Positions 4,905 through 24,086 of a DNA stretch of 31,369 nucleotides are shown piece by piece; position 1 is the first letter of the stretch, and each line of letters begins with the position of its first letter. Origin of the DNA: Candidatus Altimarinota bacterium (GTDB lineage Bacteria; Patescibacteriota; Gracilibacteria; UBA4473); the NCBI GenBank assembly GCA_018401175.1, contig JAGYLK010000048.1:1-31369 (forward strand). The letters are read 5' to 3'. The position numbers were made by a program, and so were the translations under genes. The notes beneath the pieces were generated by a model, which did not search any database, was not told the origin of the DNA, and was given only the letters and a program-made list of their open reading frames with translations.

Positions 4905-4972
4905 TTCTTCCCTCTCTTGATGAAAGAGAGGGGGGACCGCGTCCCGCAATGCGGGACGTGGTGGGTGAGTTG
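4905..4972 (-). repeat. REP-like double-hairpin element
   Basis: Minus: CAACTCACCCACCACGTCCCGCATTGCGGGACGCGGTCCCCCCTCTCTTTCATCAAGAGAGGGAAGAA, two GC-rich stems. Confidence 0.7.
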
Positions 4973-4984
4973 TGTTTTTATTTC

Positions 4985-5027
4985 CAACCCATCCCAAGCC
5001 CTTCCCTTGCGCCAAGGGAAGGGAGAA
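4985..5027 (+). repeat. REP-like element, inverted relative to 4905-4972
   Basis: CAACCCATCCCAAGCCCTTCCCTTGCGCCAAGGGAAGGGAGAA; closely matches the reverse complement of 8063-8105. Confidence 0.75.
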
Positions 5028-7999: not shown

Positions 8000-8045
8000 A
8001 CCTCTCTGTCCTTCGGACATCTCTCCCTAATAATTAGGGAGAGAA
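8000..8045 (+). repeat. REP-like double-hairpin element directly after the priA stop
   Basis: ACCTCTCTGTCCTTCGGACATCTCTCCCTAATAATTAGGGAGAGAA; C(UUCG)G hairpin plus TCTCTCCCTAA/TTAGGGAGAGA stem. Confidence 0.7.
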
Positions 8046-8062
8046 TATTTGAAATTAATTTC

Positions 8063-8105
8063 TGCTCCCTTTCCTTGATGCAAGGGAAGGGTTGGTGATG
8101 GGTTG
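8063..8105 (-). repeat. REP-like element, inverted partner of 8000-8045
   Basis: Minus: CAACCCATCACCAACCCTTCCCTTGCATCAAGGAAAGGGAGCA, homologous to 4985-5027. Confidence 0.75.
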
Positions 8106-20047: not shown

Positions 20048-20275
20048 ATGGCACATATTCAGATTCGTATTCCAGCAGCAGAAAAAGAAGCCGCGGGAGA
20101 AGTGTTGGAGAATATGGGATTAAATTTTTCATCGGCAATAAAAATTTTTCTTCGTCGCACGGTGCAAGAGGGGAAACTTCCATTTGATGTAGTTGCAGAT
20201 ATAAAGCCAAAAATTCGTTTTGAAAATTCACTCGAACAACCATGTCCCACTTTCTCGCAGCGCAAGATTGGTTAA
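20048..20275 (+). CDS. RelB/DinJ-family ribbon-helix-helix antitoxin-like protein, no adjacent toxin
   Basis: IQIRIPAAEKEAAGEVLENMGLNFSSAIKIFLRRTVQEGKLPF matches the RelB/DinJ pattern. Confidence 0.8.
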   Translation: MAHIQIRIPAAEKEAAGEVLENMGLNFSSAIKIFLRRTVQEGKLPFDVVADIKPKIRFENSLEQPCPTFSQRKIG

Positions 20276-21432
20276 AACAACTCGCGAGTGAGGCTCAGTT
20301 TTTTCGTACGAACAGACCGCCTTCTTTAGAAGTGACGAATGCTCTTTTGGACGCGCTAAACCGCCCAGATAAATCGTTTTTCTGGCGTATTATTGTCGGA
20401 GGAACTGCAGGAAAGGGGACAACATGTCGTCTTGTGGAAGATGTCTTATTACGTTCCGGGAAAACTGTAGCAACGCTTTCGTCACCTCATATTCAGGTGA
20501 TTACTGAGCGGATTCGTATCAATGGGAAACTCATTTCTATGGAAGATTTTGGGAAATCCATTTTGAAAATAAAAGAAGTTTCTGAAAAAATTTCTCAAAA
20601 GCCAACCTACTATGAAGCAATTGTGTGTGCTGGGATTTGGGCGGCGCGAGAAGCGAGATGTGAAATTTTGATTGGGGAAATTGGACTGGGGGGACGACTC
20701 GATGCGGTGAATGCGATTCGAGGAAAACGGATTGCCGCAGTGACCTTTATTGGAGATGATCATTTGGAAAAATTCGGTGGAAAATTGGAGAATTTGGCGC
20801 GAGAAAAAGCGGGGATTTTTACGAAAGATGCCGTCGAATCGTTATCTTATGAGCAAAAATTTAGATCAATATTTGAAAAAGTTTCTGGTAAAAAAATACT
20901 CTTCTTAAAAGGAGTATGGAAAAATTTGAACAAGAAACTTGCTCGTAATATTTGTGAAATAGTTTTGGAAACGAGTAACTTTGTAATGGAAAAAATACCA
21001 TTGCCGTGTCGTTGGGAAATAATTTCTTTTAGAGAGGGCAATGGAGCATGCTCCATTGTCTTAGATGGAGCTCACTCGGCACCTCGTTTTGAAAATATTT
21101 TACCAAAAATCAAAAAAATTCAGGGGAAAAGGATTGGCATTTTAGGACTCGGGAAAAATCATAATCCTGAGATTTTCAAAATCATTGCTGATGAGTTTGA
21201 CGAAATATTTTGGGTCAAGATTCCGGAGTCTCGTGATGCCTGGGATCCTCAAATTTTGAAAGAAAAGATGGGACGAGGAATTGTTTGTATTGATGCAAAA
21301 AGTGCGCTTAAACAGGCGAGTGAATTAGGAGGAACAATCTTGGTAAATAGTTTTTTTCTCGGGGGAGAAGTGAGAAATTTATTGTATGATCCACAAAAAA
21401 TATTGGAGCAACAGACGGAGTTTCCTCAGTAG
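20242..21432 (+). CDS. folC: Folylpolyglutamate/dihydrofolate synthase-like protein
   Basis: VGGTAGKGTT, SSPH..ERIRING, TYYEA, EIGLGGRLDAVN, IGDDH..LAREKAGIF, LDGAHS. Confidence 0.88.
   Translation: MSHFLAAQDWLKQLASEAQFFRTNRPPSLEVTNALLDALNRPDKSFFWRIIVGGTAGKGTTCRLVEDVLLRSGKTVATLSSPHIQVITERIRINGKLISMEDFGKSILKIKEVSEKISQKPTYYEAIVCAGIWAAREARCEILIGEIGLGGRLDAVNAIRGKRIAAVTFIGDDHLEKFGGKLENLAREKAGIFTKDAVESLSYEQKFRSIFEKVSGKKILFLKGVWKNLNKKLARNICEIVLETSNFVMEKIPLPCRWEIISFREGNGACSIVLDGAHSAPRFENILPKIKKIQGKRIGILGLGKNHNPEIFKIIADEFDEIFWVKIPESRDAWDPQILKEKMGRGIVCIDAKSALKQASELGGTILVNSFFLGGEVRNLLYDPQKILEQQTEFPQ
21037..21060. repeat. 24-bp palindrome (REP-like) in frame within folC
   Basis: GGCAATGGAGCATGCTCCATTGTC = codons G N G A C S I V. 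Confidence 0.75.
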
Positions 21433-21893
21433 CCAATATCCATCGCCTCATTTGCCAATTGATCAGCGCGTTTATTCTTTTCTCGAGGAACGTGTTCAAA
21501 TGTAATCGTGTTGAATTTTTCCTTCAAATTGTACGCTTTTTCAAACAATGGTTTAATGTTCGCATTTTTAACCTTCCAATGTCCAGACATCTGTTCTATA
21601 GCCAACTTTGAATCCAAACGCACAAGAAGGTCACTTACATTGTTCTCAAGCGCTAATTCCATTCCACGAATCATGCCGGTGTATTCGGCAAAGTTATTGG
21701 TCTGGTGACCACACGGAATTCGATCGCAGGCAATTTCTTTTCCCTGTGTATCAAAAAGAGCACATCCGGCGCCAGCAATTCCCGGGTTTCCACGCGAACC
21801 ACCGTCAGCGTAGATGATGGCTTTTTTTGTATTTTGGGTAAGGGAGCATGCTCCCTTGTCTTCGGTATTATTAAAAAGGTTTGGTGGTTCCAT
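21426..21893 (-). CDS. rnhA: Ribonuclease HI (archaeal/actinobacterial-like subtype) with an N-terminal extension
   Basis: YADGGSRGNPGIAGAG, TNNFAEY, RLDSKLAIEQMSG.WKVK, HVPREKNKRADQLANEAMD. Confidence 0.93.
   Translation of the reverse strand: MEPPNLFNNTEDKGACSLTQNTKKAIIYADGGSRGNPGIAGAGCALFDTQGKEIACDRIPCGHQTNNFAEYTGMIRGMELALENNVSDLLVRLDSKLAIEQMSGHWKVKNANIKPLFEKAYNLKEKFNTITFEHVPREKNKRADQLANEAMDIGY
21837..21860. repeat. 24-bp palindrome (REP-like) in frame within the rnhA N-terminal extension
   Basis: GGTAAGGGAGCATGCTCCCTTGTC; minus-strand codons D K G A C S L T. Confidence 0.75.
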
Positions 21894-22395
21894 AGATTAT
21901 TTGGTTAAGCTTTGAAGATTTTGGAAGTCCGTGTTTTTCTCTATTGTGTATGATGTATTGAAATGTTTGGTGAAGTGGTTTTTCGGTAGTGATAAGTTTT
22001 CGGTTGAATTTTTGTGCCCAGAGAGATGTTTTTGGGGCAAGGGGTTTAAACCCCTTGTCTTGCCTCCATATATTAAATTTTCTCGCAGAAATACCTTTTA
22101 TCTGTTGTACAATTTTCGTCAGTTCCTCTTCCTCACACGCTAAAATCATATGTACATGATCTCCACATATATGAAAGGAAAAAACAATAAATCCTTTTTT
22201 TTGCACGATATTTCCTATTATCTCAGTAAGCTTTTGTTCCTCAAGAGAAGAAAGCCATGAATGTTTTTTATTTTGTATTTGCAATTCTTCCATTCGTGCT
22301 GACTGCCGACAATCATGCAGGACACAGGTAACGTGAAATATACGCATATTTTCATTCAAAAATACATCAGGACTATAGTTTGTTATAAAATTCAT
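21871..22395 (-). mobile_element. Y1 HUH tyrosine transposase (RAYT/IS200-like TnpA), no tnpB
   Basis: HUH motif CGDHVHMIL, IVQQIKGISARKFN, LWAQKF, catalytic-Tyr helix FQYIIHNREKHGL; alternative start ATG 22347. Confidence 0.85.
22036..22059. repeat. 24-bp palindrome (REP-like) in frame within the transposase gene
   Basis: GGCAAGGGGTTTAAACCCCTTGTC; minus-strand codons D K G F K P L A. Confidence 0.75.
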
Positions 22396-24086
22396 TTTCG
22401 GAAAAAGGAAACGAGTTTCTCTAATGGGATATTTTGTGTTTTTCCATCTTTCCGTGCCACAACCTCGGCAGTATCTGCTTCAAGATTTCTTTCAGAAAGA
22501 ACAACGCGATAGGGGATTCCGAGAAGTTCAGCGTCAGAAAATTTTGTTCCGGGACCAGTTTTTTTGTCTCGTCGATCATCGTATAGGACATCTATTCCGG
22601 CATCTTGTAATTCCTTGTAAAGGGCGTCCGCCTTCTCAAATACGCGATCATCTCGTCCAATAGGAGCGAGGTAGACTTTTGCGGGAGCGACATTTTCTGG
22701 CCAGACAAGTCCTTTTTCGTCAGCAAATATCTCAGCTAAGGCTCCCATCGTGCGAGAGATTCCGATTCCGTAGCAGCCCATGATGATATCTTTTCCTTCG
22801 GAATGAAAGCTGAAGGCTTTTGAAAATTTATGAGACAAAGGAAATATATTTCCGACTTCAATTGCTTTGTATGTTTCATATTGTTCTCCCGTTTCCGGAT
22901 AAAAGTCTCCCGCTTGTGCAACCTTTATATCATAAAAATGTGCGGGTTTCTCAATGTCACGTCCAAAGTTAATGTTTATGGTATGATAATTTTCTTTGTT
23001 TGCTCCCATCTCGAAATTTACCCGATCCTGACACGTTTCATCCCAAAAGACTTGTACTTCTTTTGGCAAGTGTAACACTCCAGCATATCCCACGGGTGAT
23101 CCGGTTACGTTCTTGACAGTTTCTTCTGAGGCGAGTTCAAGGGATTTACATCCGACAAGTTTTCGTAATTTTCGTGTATCGATTTCACGATTTCCTCGTA
23201 CAGCTGCAGCAATTACGGCTTTCTTTTCTGTTTCGAATAAAATAGTTTTTGTTGTTTTTTCTACCGGAATATTGAGAAATTTGGAAAGTTCCTCAACTCC
23301 GATAATGCCTTTTCCCAAAACTTCTTCCATTTCTGCTATGGGTTCTTCTTCATTGTTCCAGCGTTCTGCGACACAAGGAGTAATTTCTCTATTTAAATAT
23401 CGGTCTTCACTTTTTATATAAAATAATTCGTCTTCTCCGATAGGCGAAAGGGTTTGAAATTCGTGAGAAAATTCAGAAAAAGCCCCTCCATCGGCCGCGA
23501 CAAATTTTGTGATATCTCCAATTCCAAGTCGTTTATAAATCTTATGATACGCTTGTTTCATTACGTCATAATATTTCTCGAAATCTTCTTGAGATGTATG
23601 AAACGAATATGCATCTTTCATCAAGAATTCTCTTCCTCTCAAAAGTCCGGATTTAGCTCGTGGTTCATTACGAAATTTATTTTGAATCTGGAATACGCAC
23701 TTTGGAAAATCTTTTGGAGAATTTGCAAATGTTTGTACGAGAGGGGTCACGACCTCTTCATGTGTGGGATTGAGCGCGATTTCTCGACCGCCAGAGAGTT
23801 CCATTTTAAACAATACGTCGACTTCATCCCATCTTCCGGTTCGTTCCCAATTGGTTTTTGCTGAAAGGGCAGGCATCAGAATCTCACTTGCGCCGACAGC
23901 TTCCATTTCTTCTCGCACGATATCTTCAATCTTGCGCAATACCTTTAGCCCAAGAGGTAAATAAGAATATACCCCCGCCATTTCTTTATTAATGAATCCT
24001 CCACGAATGAGTAATTCAGCATTTCGAGAATTTTCATCAGTGGGAGATTCCTTTGATGTTTTGAGTAAGATATTGGAATATTTCAT
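22392..24086 (-). CDS. proS: Prolyl-tRNA synthetase with INS editing domain
   Basis: LLIRGGFI..AGVYSYLPLG, PTHEE, QIQNKFRNEPRAKSGLLRGREFLMKDAYSF, EVGNIFPL, MGCYGIGISR, DAELLGIP. Confidence 0.97.
   Translation of the reverse strand: MKYSNILLKTSKESPTDENSRNAELLIRGGFINKEMAGVYSYLPLGLKVLRKIEDIVREEMEAVGASEILMPALSAKTNWERTGRWDEVDVLFKMELSGGREIALNPTHEEVVTPLVQTFANSPKDFPKCVFQIQNKFRNEPRAKSGLLRGREFLMKDAYSFHTSQEDFEKYYDVMKQAYHKIYKRLGIGDITKFVAADGGAFSEFSHEFQTLSPIGEDELFYIKSEDRYLNREITPCVAERWNNEEEPIAEMEEVLGKGIIGVEELSKFLNIPVEKTTKTILFETEKKAVIAAAVRGNREIDTRKLRKLVGCKSLELASEETVKNVTGSPVGYAGVLHLPKEVQVFWDETCQDRVNFEMGANKENYHTININFGRDIEKPAHFYDIKVAQAGDFYPETGEQYETYKAIEVGNIFPLSHKFSKAFSFHSEGKDIIMGCYGIGISRTMGALAEIFADEKGLVWPENVAPAKVYLAPIGRDDRVFEKADALYKELQDAGIDVLYDDRRDKKTGPGTKFSDAELLGIPYRVVLSERNLEADTAEVVARKDGKTQNIPLEKLVSFFRK

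What the first reader, a model, noticed from the sequence alone, without database searches (positions are those of the whole stretch)
21037..22059. Three 24-bp palindromes, each exactly in codon phase, inside folC, rnhA and the RAYT-like transposase
Seen: GGCAATGGAGCATGCTCCATTGTC (21037-21060), GGTAAGGGAGCATGCTCCCTTGTC (21837-21860) and GGCAAGGGGTTTAAACCCCTTGTC (22036-22059). All share GGYAA...TTGTC ends, 24-nt length and orientation, while the inner arms covary. All lie within about 1 kb of the Y1 transposase. Each starts on a codon boundary of its host ORF (offsets 795, 33 and 336 nt), giving GNGACSIV, DKGACSLT and DKGFKPLA. In FolC the element supplies the hydrophobic residues just before the conserved LDGAH motif. 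Known: RAYTs spread REP hairpins, normally extragenic; Rickettsia palindromic elements are a precedent for coding insertions. Inference: a RAYT/REP system whose 8-codon, stop-free hairpins colonise coding sequences and write peptide modules into housekeeping enzymes and its own transposase.
Basis: partly seen in the sequence, partly recalled or inferred. Interest (0 to 1): 0.75.

Follow-up and report, generated by a model that had tools for sequence, protein, structure and literature searches.

The report
In-frame REP hairpins around a RAYT-like transposase
Three short DNA hairpin repeats tied to a single-strand-DNA transposase gene sit in frame inside that gene and two neighbouring housekeeping genes of a tiny-genome (CPR) bacterium; repeats inside genes are already known, but the copy inside the transposase's own gene has not, as far as I could find, been described in print.

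Summary
Three 24-nt palindromes lie at the stated coordinates, all in codon phase 0, against 0.13 pattern matches expected by chance.

They belong to a six-copy family in this 894-kb assembly. The family is tied to a single-copy, RAYT-like Y1/HUH transposase. In 28 of 34 homologous loci from many phyla, the same CAAGGGG-N6-CCCCTTG hairpin lies inside or next to the gene.

Same-genus genomes and syntenic contigs without the transposase lack the hairpins in FolC and RNase H. A 98%-identical strain lacks the FolC copy, so that copy is recent.

All three host sites are permissive: a beta-hairpin tip in FolC, a variable N-terminal linker in RNase H, and a low-confidence loop in the transposase.

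Best reading: a REPtron-like system in a gene-dense genome. Only in-frame, stop-free copies in loops survive.

- a clean 8-codon module (the net gain is about 3 codons);
- a specialised strategy of colonising coding sequence (a relative keeps 11 copies mostly outside long reading frames);
- a strict phase rule.

Intragenic REPs are already published (Di Nocera 2013). A REP inside the RAYT's own loop was not found in the papers searched. Earlier notes of this scan report it on other DNA.

The parts
21037..21060 (+). Hairpin copy 1 (GCATGC-centred type), in frame in the FolC-like ORF (GNGACSIV). It lies at the tip and second strand of a beta hairpin just before LDGAH.
   Evidence: Absent from all orthologues examined, including a strain 98% identical on the adjacent 7.2 kb.
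21837..21860 (-). Hairpin copy 2 (GCATGC-centred type), in frame in the N-terminal linker of RNase H (DKGACSLT). It starts 11 nt downstream of the transposase stop codon.
   Evidence: [quoted passage not shown] Absent where the transposase is absent.
22036..22059 (-). Hairpin copy 3 (TTTAAA-centred type), in frame inside the transposase ORF (DKGFKPLA, residues 113-120).
   Evidence: It lies in a low-confidence loop between helix 89-112 and strand 131-135. Homologues carry KGFKPL, KGACSL, SGACST or RGHAPL in the same loop, or nothing.
21871..22395 (-). Single-copy Y1/HUH transposase, RAYT-like (174 aa). HUH motif at H80/H82; catalytic Tyr candidate Y147.
   Evidence: Pfam Y1_Tnp at 50.3 bits. 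Best NCBIfam hit is REP_Tyr_transpos at 53.8 bits, below its cut-off of 80. Single copy by tblastn. Same proS-Tnp-rnhA position in three other assemblies.
21829..22389 (-). Block present only in the transposase-bearing lineage. It holds the transposase ORF plus the rebuilt 5' end of rnhA with hairpin copy 2.
   Evidence: blastn alignments of the transposase-less syntenic loci L102 and L103 stop at 21828 and resume at 22390. In G001 and G002 the proS stop overlaps the rnhA ATG, and the transposase ORF starts at that same ATGAAT.
20242..21432 (+). FolC-like Mur ligase ORF, host of copy 1.
   Evidence: sources name its homologues folylpolyglutamate synthase.
21426..21893 (-). RNase H ORF, host of copy 2. 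Its start codon lies inside the 3' end of the transposase ORF.
22392..24086 (-). Prolyl-tRNA synthetase ORF directly upstream of the transposase. Its stop overlaps the transposase start.
   Evidence: Pfam families of the syntenic genes.

Best explanation
The three palindromes are REP-type hairpin repeats belonging to the adjacent single-copy Y1/HUH (RAYT-like) transposase. Together they form a compact REPtron wedged between proS and rnhA.

Proposed mechanism, inferred by analogy with TnpA_REP and IS200/IS605 enzymes: the enzyme recognises the hairpin that the repeat forms on single-stranded DNA, nicks beside it, and copies or moves it, mostly over short distances.

About 89% of this genome is coding by a crude ORF call. 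Most landings therefore hit genes. Only copies that keep the frame, contain no stop and fall in permissive surface loops or linkers survive. This selection filter accounts for three things:
- the in-frame copies in FolC, RNase H and the transposase's own loop;
- the bias toward the phase that reads x-K-G-x-x-P-L-x;
- the recurrence of inserts at the same FolC loop in other lineages.

Shown here: the link between hairpin and transposase, absence of the hairpins in relatives, recent gain of the FolC copy, and location in loops.

Inferred: catalysis, the single-stranded-DNA route and local hopping.
For: 1. Link to the enzyme clade. 28 of 34 homologous loci carry a near-perfect 20-nt CAAKGR-N8-YCMTTG palindrome. 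They span Peribacteria, Balneolaceae, Ignavibacteria, Saprospiraceae, Deltaproteobacteria and others. The palindrome usually lies about 60 nt upstream of the gene, inside the same loop, inside its 3' end, or about 100 nt downstream. Relative G009 has a homologue at 46% identity with one internal copy, one upstream copy and two dispersed copies.

2. Absence without the enzyme. Same-genus G001 and G002 (both 100% complete) have neither the transposase nor any such palindrome. Their FolC loop and RNase H linker lack the peptides. The same holds for the syntenic contigs L102-L104.

3. Recent mobility. L099 is 98.1% identical to the window over 7.2 kb. That identity ends 4 nt from the FolC palindrome. 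L099 instead carries the 7-nt tandem-repeat loop also seen in the more distant L102 and G002.

4. RAYT-like behaviour. The gene is single copy. It sits at the same proS-Tnp-rnhA position in assemblies whose transposases are 72-98% identical. HUH and Tyr are conserved.

5. Permissive sites. The transposase octapeptide lies in a loop with pLDDT about 60. The FolC site is a beta-hairpin tip (pLDDT block 74) in a stretch whose length varies from 3 to over 30 residues among 99 homologues. Some of those inserts come from other hairpin families.

6. General pattern. Five of six Y1 genes examined in this genome carry their own palindrome in the same loop, as do 7 of the 15 Y1 genes of this genome and its relatives examined, and 5 of 30 top RAYT loci in the class. 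Most also have matching flanking copies.

7. Oriented unit. The copies share the asymmetric flank TTGTCT, and all three in the window have the same orientation.
Against: - The family is small: six copies here, against the hundreds typical of REPs.
- No copy was found on the 5' side of the transposase in this window.
- The hairpin lacks the GTAG tag of classical RAYT-linked REPs.
- The protein scores below the curated cut-offs of both the RAYT and the IS200 NCBIfam models.
- Relatives G032 (11 copies), G018 and G021 carry CAAGGGG-type hairpins with no detectable transposase of this clade, in assemblies 90-94% complete.
- The insertion boundaries are ambiguous. Against same-genus G001, the FolC copy could be read as a 12-nt core inserted into a native AAT|ATT quasi-palindrome.
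- The FolC copy is seen in one assembly only.
- No biochemical evidence exists.
Confidence: 0.7

Rival explanations
1. The unit is an IS200/IS605-like insertion sequence, or its decayed remnant. The hairpins are its subterminal end structures plus solo ends (palindrome-associated MITE-like derivatives), rather than a domesticated RAYT with REPs.
For: The protein also matches the IS200 model (42.5 bits), and the profile of its family matches IS200/IS605 transposase structures (2xo6, 2a6m). In stand-alone homologues one hairpin lies about 60 nt upstream and one at the 3' end, as left and right ends would. The block is absent from close relatives.
Against: The gene is single copy. It keeps one syntenic position across assemblies 72-98% identical, which points to vertical inheritance. 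It has no upstream hairpin here. Its reading frame is fused into the operon, with overlapping start and stop codons. The RAYT model matches it over more of the model's length and with a higher score than the IS200 model.
Confidence: 0.15
2. The palindromes arise and are kept perfect in place by hairpin-templated (template-switch, quasi-palindrome-correcting) replication errors in a repair-poor genome. No transposase is involved, and the neighbouring Y1 gene is incidental.
For: The genome has a general excess of perfect zero-loop palindromes with arms of 10 nt or more: 40 observed against about 2 expected. The FolC copy differs from the RNase H copy at one stem pair (T-A instead of G-C), and that pair matches the native AAT/ATT codons of the same-genus orthologue. 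At the RNase H site, the core differs completely between lineages whose transposases are 89% identical, yet it stays palindromic.
Against: This does not explain why the same arm sequence CAAGGGG accompanies the same transposase clade in many phyla. It does not explain why copies share asymmetric flanks and one orientation. It does not explain why transposase-less relatives have none.
Confidence: 0.1
3. The hairpins are selected cis-regulatory elements. They would act as RNA stem-loops that stabilise, attenuate or couple translation in the proS-Tnp-rnhA operon, or as DNA operators. They would be maintained in place rather than mobile.
For: Copy 2 lies 11 nt after the transposase stop codon and 33 nt into rnhA. 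On the + strand, the outer stem pair is G-T in all three copies, which would be G-U in RNA. REPs elsewhere act as 3'-end RNA elements (PMC3733652). The transposase-internal and RNase H copies are conserved in position in L099-L101.
Against: The FolC copy is strain-specific. The + strand is antisense for two of the three host genes. Copies also occur in unrelated contexts, namely the livM tail and an intergenic spacer. The sequence at the RNase H site changes between lineages.
Confidence: 0.08
4. The palindromes are assembly or amplification artefacts. The assembly does contain one 7.4-kb fold-back contig, C173.
For: C173 is a perfect 7366-nt palindrome, and several contigs end in palindromes. 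The FolC copy is seen only in this assembly.
Against: Copies 2 and 3 recur in independent assemblies from other samples (L099, L101). All copies lie in the interior of a 31-kb contig and preserve long reading frames.
Confidence: 0.02

Closest known systems
REPtrons: RAYT / TnpA_REP genes with their REP hairpins (E. coli yafM, Pseudomonas, Stenotrophomonas; Nunvar 2010 PMC2817692; Di Nocera 2013 PMC3733652)
   Same: A single-copy, vertically kept Y1/HUH transposase gene accompanied by short GC-rich-stem palindromes. These also occur dispersed in the genome, and subfamilies differ by compensating stem changes.
   Different: - There is no GTAG (or CGTC) tag; the conserved part is the stem CAAGGGG/CCCCTTG.
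- Only six copies are present.
- One copy lies in frame inside the transposase gene itself.
- The protein is below the curated RAYT cut-off.
- The host is a CPR genome with almost no intergenic space.
Intragenic REPs (Opitutus terrae, Xanthomonas, Stenotrophomonas, and others; Di Nocera et al. 2013, PMC3733652)
   Same: REP units lie in frame within known protein genes, often at the N- or C-terminus or in loops. Different REPs can be found at about the same site of one gene in related species.
   Different: That paper does not report REPs inside the RAYT gene, as far as its text searches showed. Its families are GTAG- or CGTC-tagged.
Rickettsia palindromic elements (RPE), as summarised in PMC3733652
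   Same: Palindromic repeats inserted in frame into genes that stay functional, adding peptide segments at the protein surface.
   Different: By my recollection RPE-1 units are much longer (about 100-150 bp). In PMC3733652 the intragenic R. conorii repeats (RPE-4 and RPE-6) fall in the CGTC class, which has no dedicated transposase. There is no sequence relation to the 24-nt unit here.
IS200/IS605 family insertion sequences (TnpA Y1 with subterminal hairpins)
   Same: The same enzyme fold and hairpin-reading logic. In stand-alone homologues, hairpins lie near both ends of the gene.
   Different: The gene is single copy and syntenic. It has no defined element ends or target duplication logic here. 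The hairpins are perfect palindromes that also occur alone.

Membership tests
RAYT/REP system (REPtron) | Y1/HUH transposase with an HUH motif and a catalytic tyrosine | tested here: met
   Pfam Y1_Tnp at 50.3 bits against a cut-off of 23. H80, H82 and Y147 are invariant or nearly invariant among 17 homologues.
RAYT/REP system (REPtron) | Protein passes the curated RAYT model (NCBIfam NF047646, cut-off 80 bits) | tested here: not met
   53.8 bits. It is the best-scoring NCBIfam family but falls below the cut-off.
RAYT/REP system (REPtron) | Single copy per genome, vertically inherited at one locus | tested here: met
   One tblastn match in the assembly. The proS-Tnp-rnhA position is the same in L099, L100 and L101, whose transposases are 72-98% identical.
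RAYT/REP system (REPtron) | Gene flanked by its cognate hairpin repeats | tested here: inconclusive
   In this window there is one copy 11 nt downstream and one inside the gene, but none upstream. Across homologues, copies lie upstream, inside and downstream.
RAYT/REP system (REPtron) | REP carries the conserved GTAG tetranucleotide at one end | tested here: not met
   The flanks read GGG/GGY..TTGTCT, with no GTAG. Other palindrome families of the same genome do carry GTAGGG..CCCTAC.
RAYT/REP system (REPtron) | Repeat family dispersed at high copy number | tested here: not met
   Six copies in 894 kb. The highest count among relatives is 11, in G032.
RAYT/REP system (REPtron) | Enzyme binds and cleaves the single-stranded hairpin | not testable with these tools
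   Requires a purified-protein assay.
IS200/IS605 insertion sequence | Protein passes the curated IS200 model (NF033573, cut-off 55 bits) and the element is multi-copy with defined ends | tested here: not met
   42.5 bits. The gene is single copy. No upstream hairpin is present here.
Intragenic REP (sensu Di Nocera 2013) | A member of a dispersed palindromic repeat family lies wholly inside a real protein-coding frame and is absent from orthologues | tested here: met
   FolC, RNase H and transposase copies.

The most novel reading that the evidence does not exclude
The hairpin copy inside the transposase's own reading frame is not an accidental passenger. It would be a working part of the system, for example a self-recognition or feedback site, or the master copy from which new repeats are made.

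More broadly, this Y1 clade and its stop-free hairpins would form a mobile unit adapted to living in frame inside genes. All 34 longer homologues found are MmeI/BrxX-like restriction-modification methylases with the Y1 domain inserted in frame. A hairpin-encoded NKGLQPLV linker lies at the junction in the loci examined.
Probability: 0.2. Interest if true: 0.8.

Novelty: new variant of a known kind. Interest (0 to 1): 0.55.

Why it matters
REP/RAYT systems have been studied almost entirely in Proteobacteria, where the repeats are by name extragenic. Here, in a genome with almost no intergenic DNA, the same kind of system persists by writing short peptides into surface loops of essential enzymes and of its own transposase.

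This gives a natural record of which protein sites tolerate insertions. It also provides a dated event: the FolC copy was gained between strains that are 98% identical. And it defines a clade-specific hairpin, CAAGGGG-N6-CCCCTTG, that could be tested directly with the purified enzyme.

The recurring in-gene copy in the transposase loop, and the in-frame residence of this Y1 domain in restriction-modification enzymes, were not found described in the literature searched. If functional, they would add a new layer to how such domesticated transposases are controlled or spread.

Tried and rejected
- **Genome-wide search.** Only six family members turned up, so a large coding-versus-intergenic table is not possible for this genome.
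- **Related-loci search.** The search for related loci with the 17-sequence alignment failed because no conserved stretch was available. It was repeated with 8 closer sequences.
- **Missing cognate transposase.** I looked for a transposase of this clade in G032, G018 and G021, using both a single protein and a profile. Only weak hits to other Y1 paralogues appeared.
- **A 12-nt insert instead of 24 nt.** I considered that only the core GGAGCATGCTCC is the insert. This fits the alignment to G001. It does not fit the 28-nt unit with shared flanks seen in the FolC and RNase H copies. The question is left open.
- **Protein-level selection for a KGxxPL motif.** Rejected, because the peptides change (GACS, GFKP, GLKP, GHAP) while base pairing stays perfect, and because copies also lie outside genes.
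- **Assembly artefact.** Rejected for copies 2 and 3, which recur in independent assemblies.
- **Literature searches.** Searches for REPs inside RAYT genes, palindromes in Peregrinibacteria and MmeI plus IS200 found nothing relevant beyond PMC3733652.
Full report
**Observation**

The shared pattern GGYAA-N14-TTGTC occurs three times in the window against 0.13 expected, and none of 100 shuffles reached three.

- The ORF at 20242-21432 (+) is a Mur-ligase/FolC-like protein.
- The ORF at 21426-21893 (-) is an RNase H.
- The ORF at 21871-22395 (-) is a Y1_Tnp protein.

The offsets of 795, 33 and 336 nt are all multiples of three. The peptides are GNGACSIV, DKGACSLT and DKGFKPLA. As single-stranded DNA each folds into a 7-9 bp stem with a 4-nt loop, at -5.5 to -8.2 kcal/mol.

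**The family in this genome**

The window is contig C48 of an 894-kb, 206-contig, 41% GC assembly that is about 92% complete. An earlier scan note calls it an uncultured Peribacteria bacterium. The record titles of its nearest relatives agree with that.

Strict and relaxed searches find six credible members:
- the three in the window;
- a pair 13 nt apart between convergent genes on C50, one degenerate GCATGC type and one perfect TTTAAA type;
- one in the last codons of a livM-like permease on C162, also in phase 0, reading CKGFKPLV.

The FolC and RNase H copies share 24 of 28 positions of a longer oriented unit. All five well-preserved copies share the flank TTGTCT. The three window copies have the same orientation.

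The genome as a whole has a large excess of perfect palindromes with arms of 10 nt or more: 40 against about 2 expected. These fall into several other families, including 28-nt GTAGGG..CCCTAC units.

**Link to the transposase**

The transposase is single copy. Its HUH histidines and its tyrosine are conserved. Its best NCBIfam match is the RAYT model, at 53.8 bits against a cut-off of 80. The IS200 model follows at 42.5 bits against a cut-off of 55.

The decisive evidence is comparative.
- Of 34 homologous loci fetched from species-representative genomes of many phyla, 28 carry a near-perfect 20-nt CAAGGGG-N6-CCCCTTG-type palindrome.
- It lies about 60 nt upstream of the gene, inside the same loop, inside the 3' end (read as NKGLQPLV), or about 100 nt downstream.
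- The centre varies (TTGCAA, TTTAAA, GCATGC, TCATGA, ACATGT), while the arms are conserved.

Among 40 relatives, clearly palindromic copies occur in four besides G000: G009, G032, G018 and G021.
- G009 has a 46% identical homologue with an internal copy, an upstream copy and two dispersed copies.
- For G032, G018 and G021 I could not find a transposase of this clade. Those assemblies are 90-94% complete. This is a caveat. REPs are reported to occur in species that lack a REPtron (PMC3733652).
- The two same-genus genomes, both 100% complete, have neither the hairpins nor the gene.

**Are the peptides insertions?**

*FolC.* The stretch between RWEKV and ILDGAH is 3-4 residues in most of 99 homologues, but it is an indel hot spot. 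No other sequence has GNGACSIV.

Contig L099 is 98.1% identical to the window over 7.2 kb, and that identity ends 4 nt from the palindrome. There L099 carries a 7-nt tandem-repeat loop, which the more distant L102 and G002 also share. The FolC copy is therefore a recent, strain-level gain.

Other lineages carry hairpins of other families at the same loop. L103, for example, has CCCCTCTCC-CAGAA-GGAGAGGGG, read as PPLPEGEGS. So this site accepts such elements repeatedly.

The AlphaFold model (mean pLDDT 91.8) places residues 259-275 in a beta hairpin. The element lies at its tip and second strand, and the local pLDDT block is 74.

*RNase H.* The element lies between the conserved N-terminal NLF motif and the catalytic domain, in a linker of variable sequence. 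It is absent from all transposase-less relatives and contigs.

[quoted passage not shown] In L101, whose transposase is 89% identical, the core is a different palindrome (GGGCTTAAGCCC, DKGLKPIA). In L100 it is degenerate.

*Net length.* In both hosts the gain over the nearest relatives is only about three codons, and the outer codons align with native residues. The element's exact boundaries, somewhere between 12 and 28 nt, remain open.

*Transposase.* Homologues carry KGFKPL, KGACSL, SGACST, RGHAPL or RGHDPL in the same loop, or nothing at all. The syntenic L100 has a GCATGC-centred palindrome where G000 has the TTTAAA type. The model puts residues 113-120 in a loop with pLDDT about 60, between helix 89-112 and strand 131-135 and away from the Tyr helix.

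**How the unit sits in the operon**

In G001, G002 and L102-L104 the proS stop overlaps the rnhA start (AAAATGAAT). In G000 the transposase ORF begins at that same ATGAAT. The rnhA ORF has a new start inside the transposase's 3' end. Alignments to transposase-less loci break between 21829 and 22389.

This agrees with the scan's separate note on the same stretch (e1-5298559). The sister strain L099 has a 1-nt deletion that removes the Tyr region of its transposase, and L099 is also the strain without the FolC copy. That is a single coincidence, not a test.

**Phase**

All four intragenic copies here are in the phase that puts the palindrome centre on a codon boundary. The chance of that is about 1/36, given which phases are stop-free.

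In relatives, three further copies inside long ORFs (285-652 codons) are also in that phase. Across all loci the counts are 25, 9 and 3 for phases 0, 2 and 1. Many of these are orthologous, so the counts are not independent.

TCATGA-centred variants would give a stop in phase 0, and the in-ORF copy found (L060) is read in phase 2. I read the bias as selection on the encoded peptide and against stops, not as a phase-aware insertion mechanism.

**A wider pattern**

Five of six Y1 genes examined in this genome (on C48, C25, C105, C71 and C119) carry their own palindrome in the same loop. So do 7 of the 15 Y1 genes of this genome and its relatives examined, and 5 of the 30 best RAYT loci in the class. 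Most also have matching copies on their flanks.

Earlier notes of this scan report the same layout on other genomes. I reached it independently here. I found no published description in the papers searched.

Intragenic REPs as such are published (PMC3733652). That paper reports different REPs at about the same site of recB in two Xanthomonas species, and describes REPtrons.

**Verdict**

This is a REPtron-like system with a non-GTAG hairpin in a CPR genome. Its in-frame copies are best explained by local mobilisation followed by a survival filter.

I class it as a new variant of a known kind. The most novel element is the recurrent in-frame copy inside the transposase gene. The second is the in-frame residence of this Y1 clade in restriction-modification enzymes.

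Noticed in passing
L027, L030, L041, L047 and others (e.g. L041:2354-5866); proteins P0121-P0154: In many phyla the closest homologues of this Y1 transposase are not separate genes. They are a domain lying in frame inside 900-1350-aa MmeI/Eco57I/BrxX-like restriction-modification methylases, where it splits the N6-methylase domain. In the loci examined, a CAAGGGG hairpin read as NKGLQPLV lies at the downstream junction. All 34 'longer' homologues have this architecture.
   Followed up: partly
G000 contigs C25:692-721, C105:1330-1356, C71:10069-10096, C119:3390-3415; relatives L060, L071, L079, L081: Other RAYT-like genes of this genome and its relatives each carry their own palindrome in frame in the same loop. 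One example is the 28-nt GTAGGGGACGCAGATCTGCGCCCCCTAC. Matching copies lie on the flanks and elsewhere in the genome.
   Followed up: partly
FolC loop, window 21010-21075; L002, L099, L102, L103, L104, L010: The loop before LDGAH is a repeated landing site. Different lineages carry 7-nt tandem repeats (CAATCTT)n, a CCCCTCTCC..GGAGAGGGG hairpin, or an AACCCG..CGGGTT element, all in frame.
   Followed up: partly
L099:6001-6498: In the 98%-identical sister strain, the transposase has a 1-nt deletion after codon 131, which removes the catalytic-Tyr region. That strain also lacks the FolC hairpin.
   Followed up: partly
G000 contig C173 (whole contig, 7366 nt); contig ends of C76, C108, C180, C77, C129: C173 is a perfect fold-back of 3683 nt centred on a natural GTAGGTGCGTAGCATGCTACGCACCTAC palindrome, most likely an assembly or amplification artefact. 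Several other contigs end exactly in palindromes, so these repeats break the assembly.
   Followed up: no
G000 C124:7384-7443 and C152:2862-2922; C50:3631-3689: Hairpins occur as fixed pairs: a GCATGC-centred one followed 13-16 nt later by a TTTAAA- or ATATAT-centred one. This resembles the REP dimers described for other bacteria.
   Followed up: no
window 4910-5023 and 8020-8091: Clusters of other GC-rich hairpins of the CCCTCTCTT..AAGAGAGGG and CCCTTCCCTTG..CAAGGGAAGGG types lie in intergenic spacers of the same window.
   Followed up: no
G032 (relative), 11 sites such as C6:1568-1587: A same-class relative holds 11 CAAGGGGTTGCAACCCCTTG-type hairpins. All lie in open frames of 124 codons or fewer, so most are probably intergenic. 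No transposase of the matching clade was detected in its 90%-complete assembly.
   Followed up: partly
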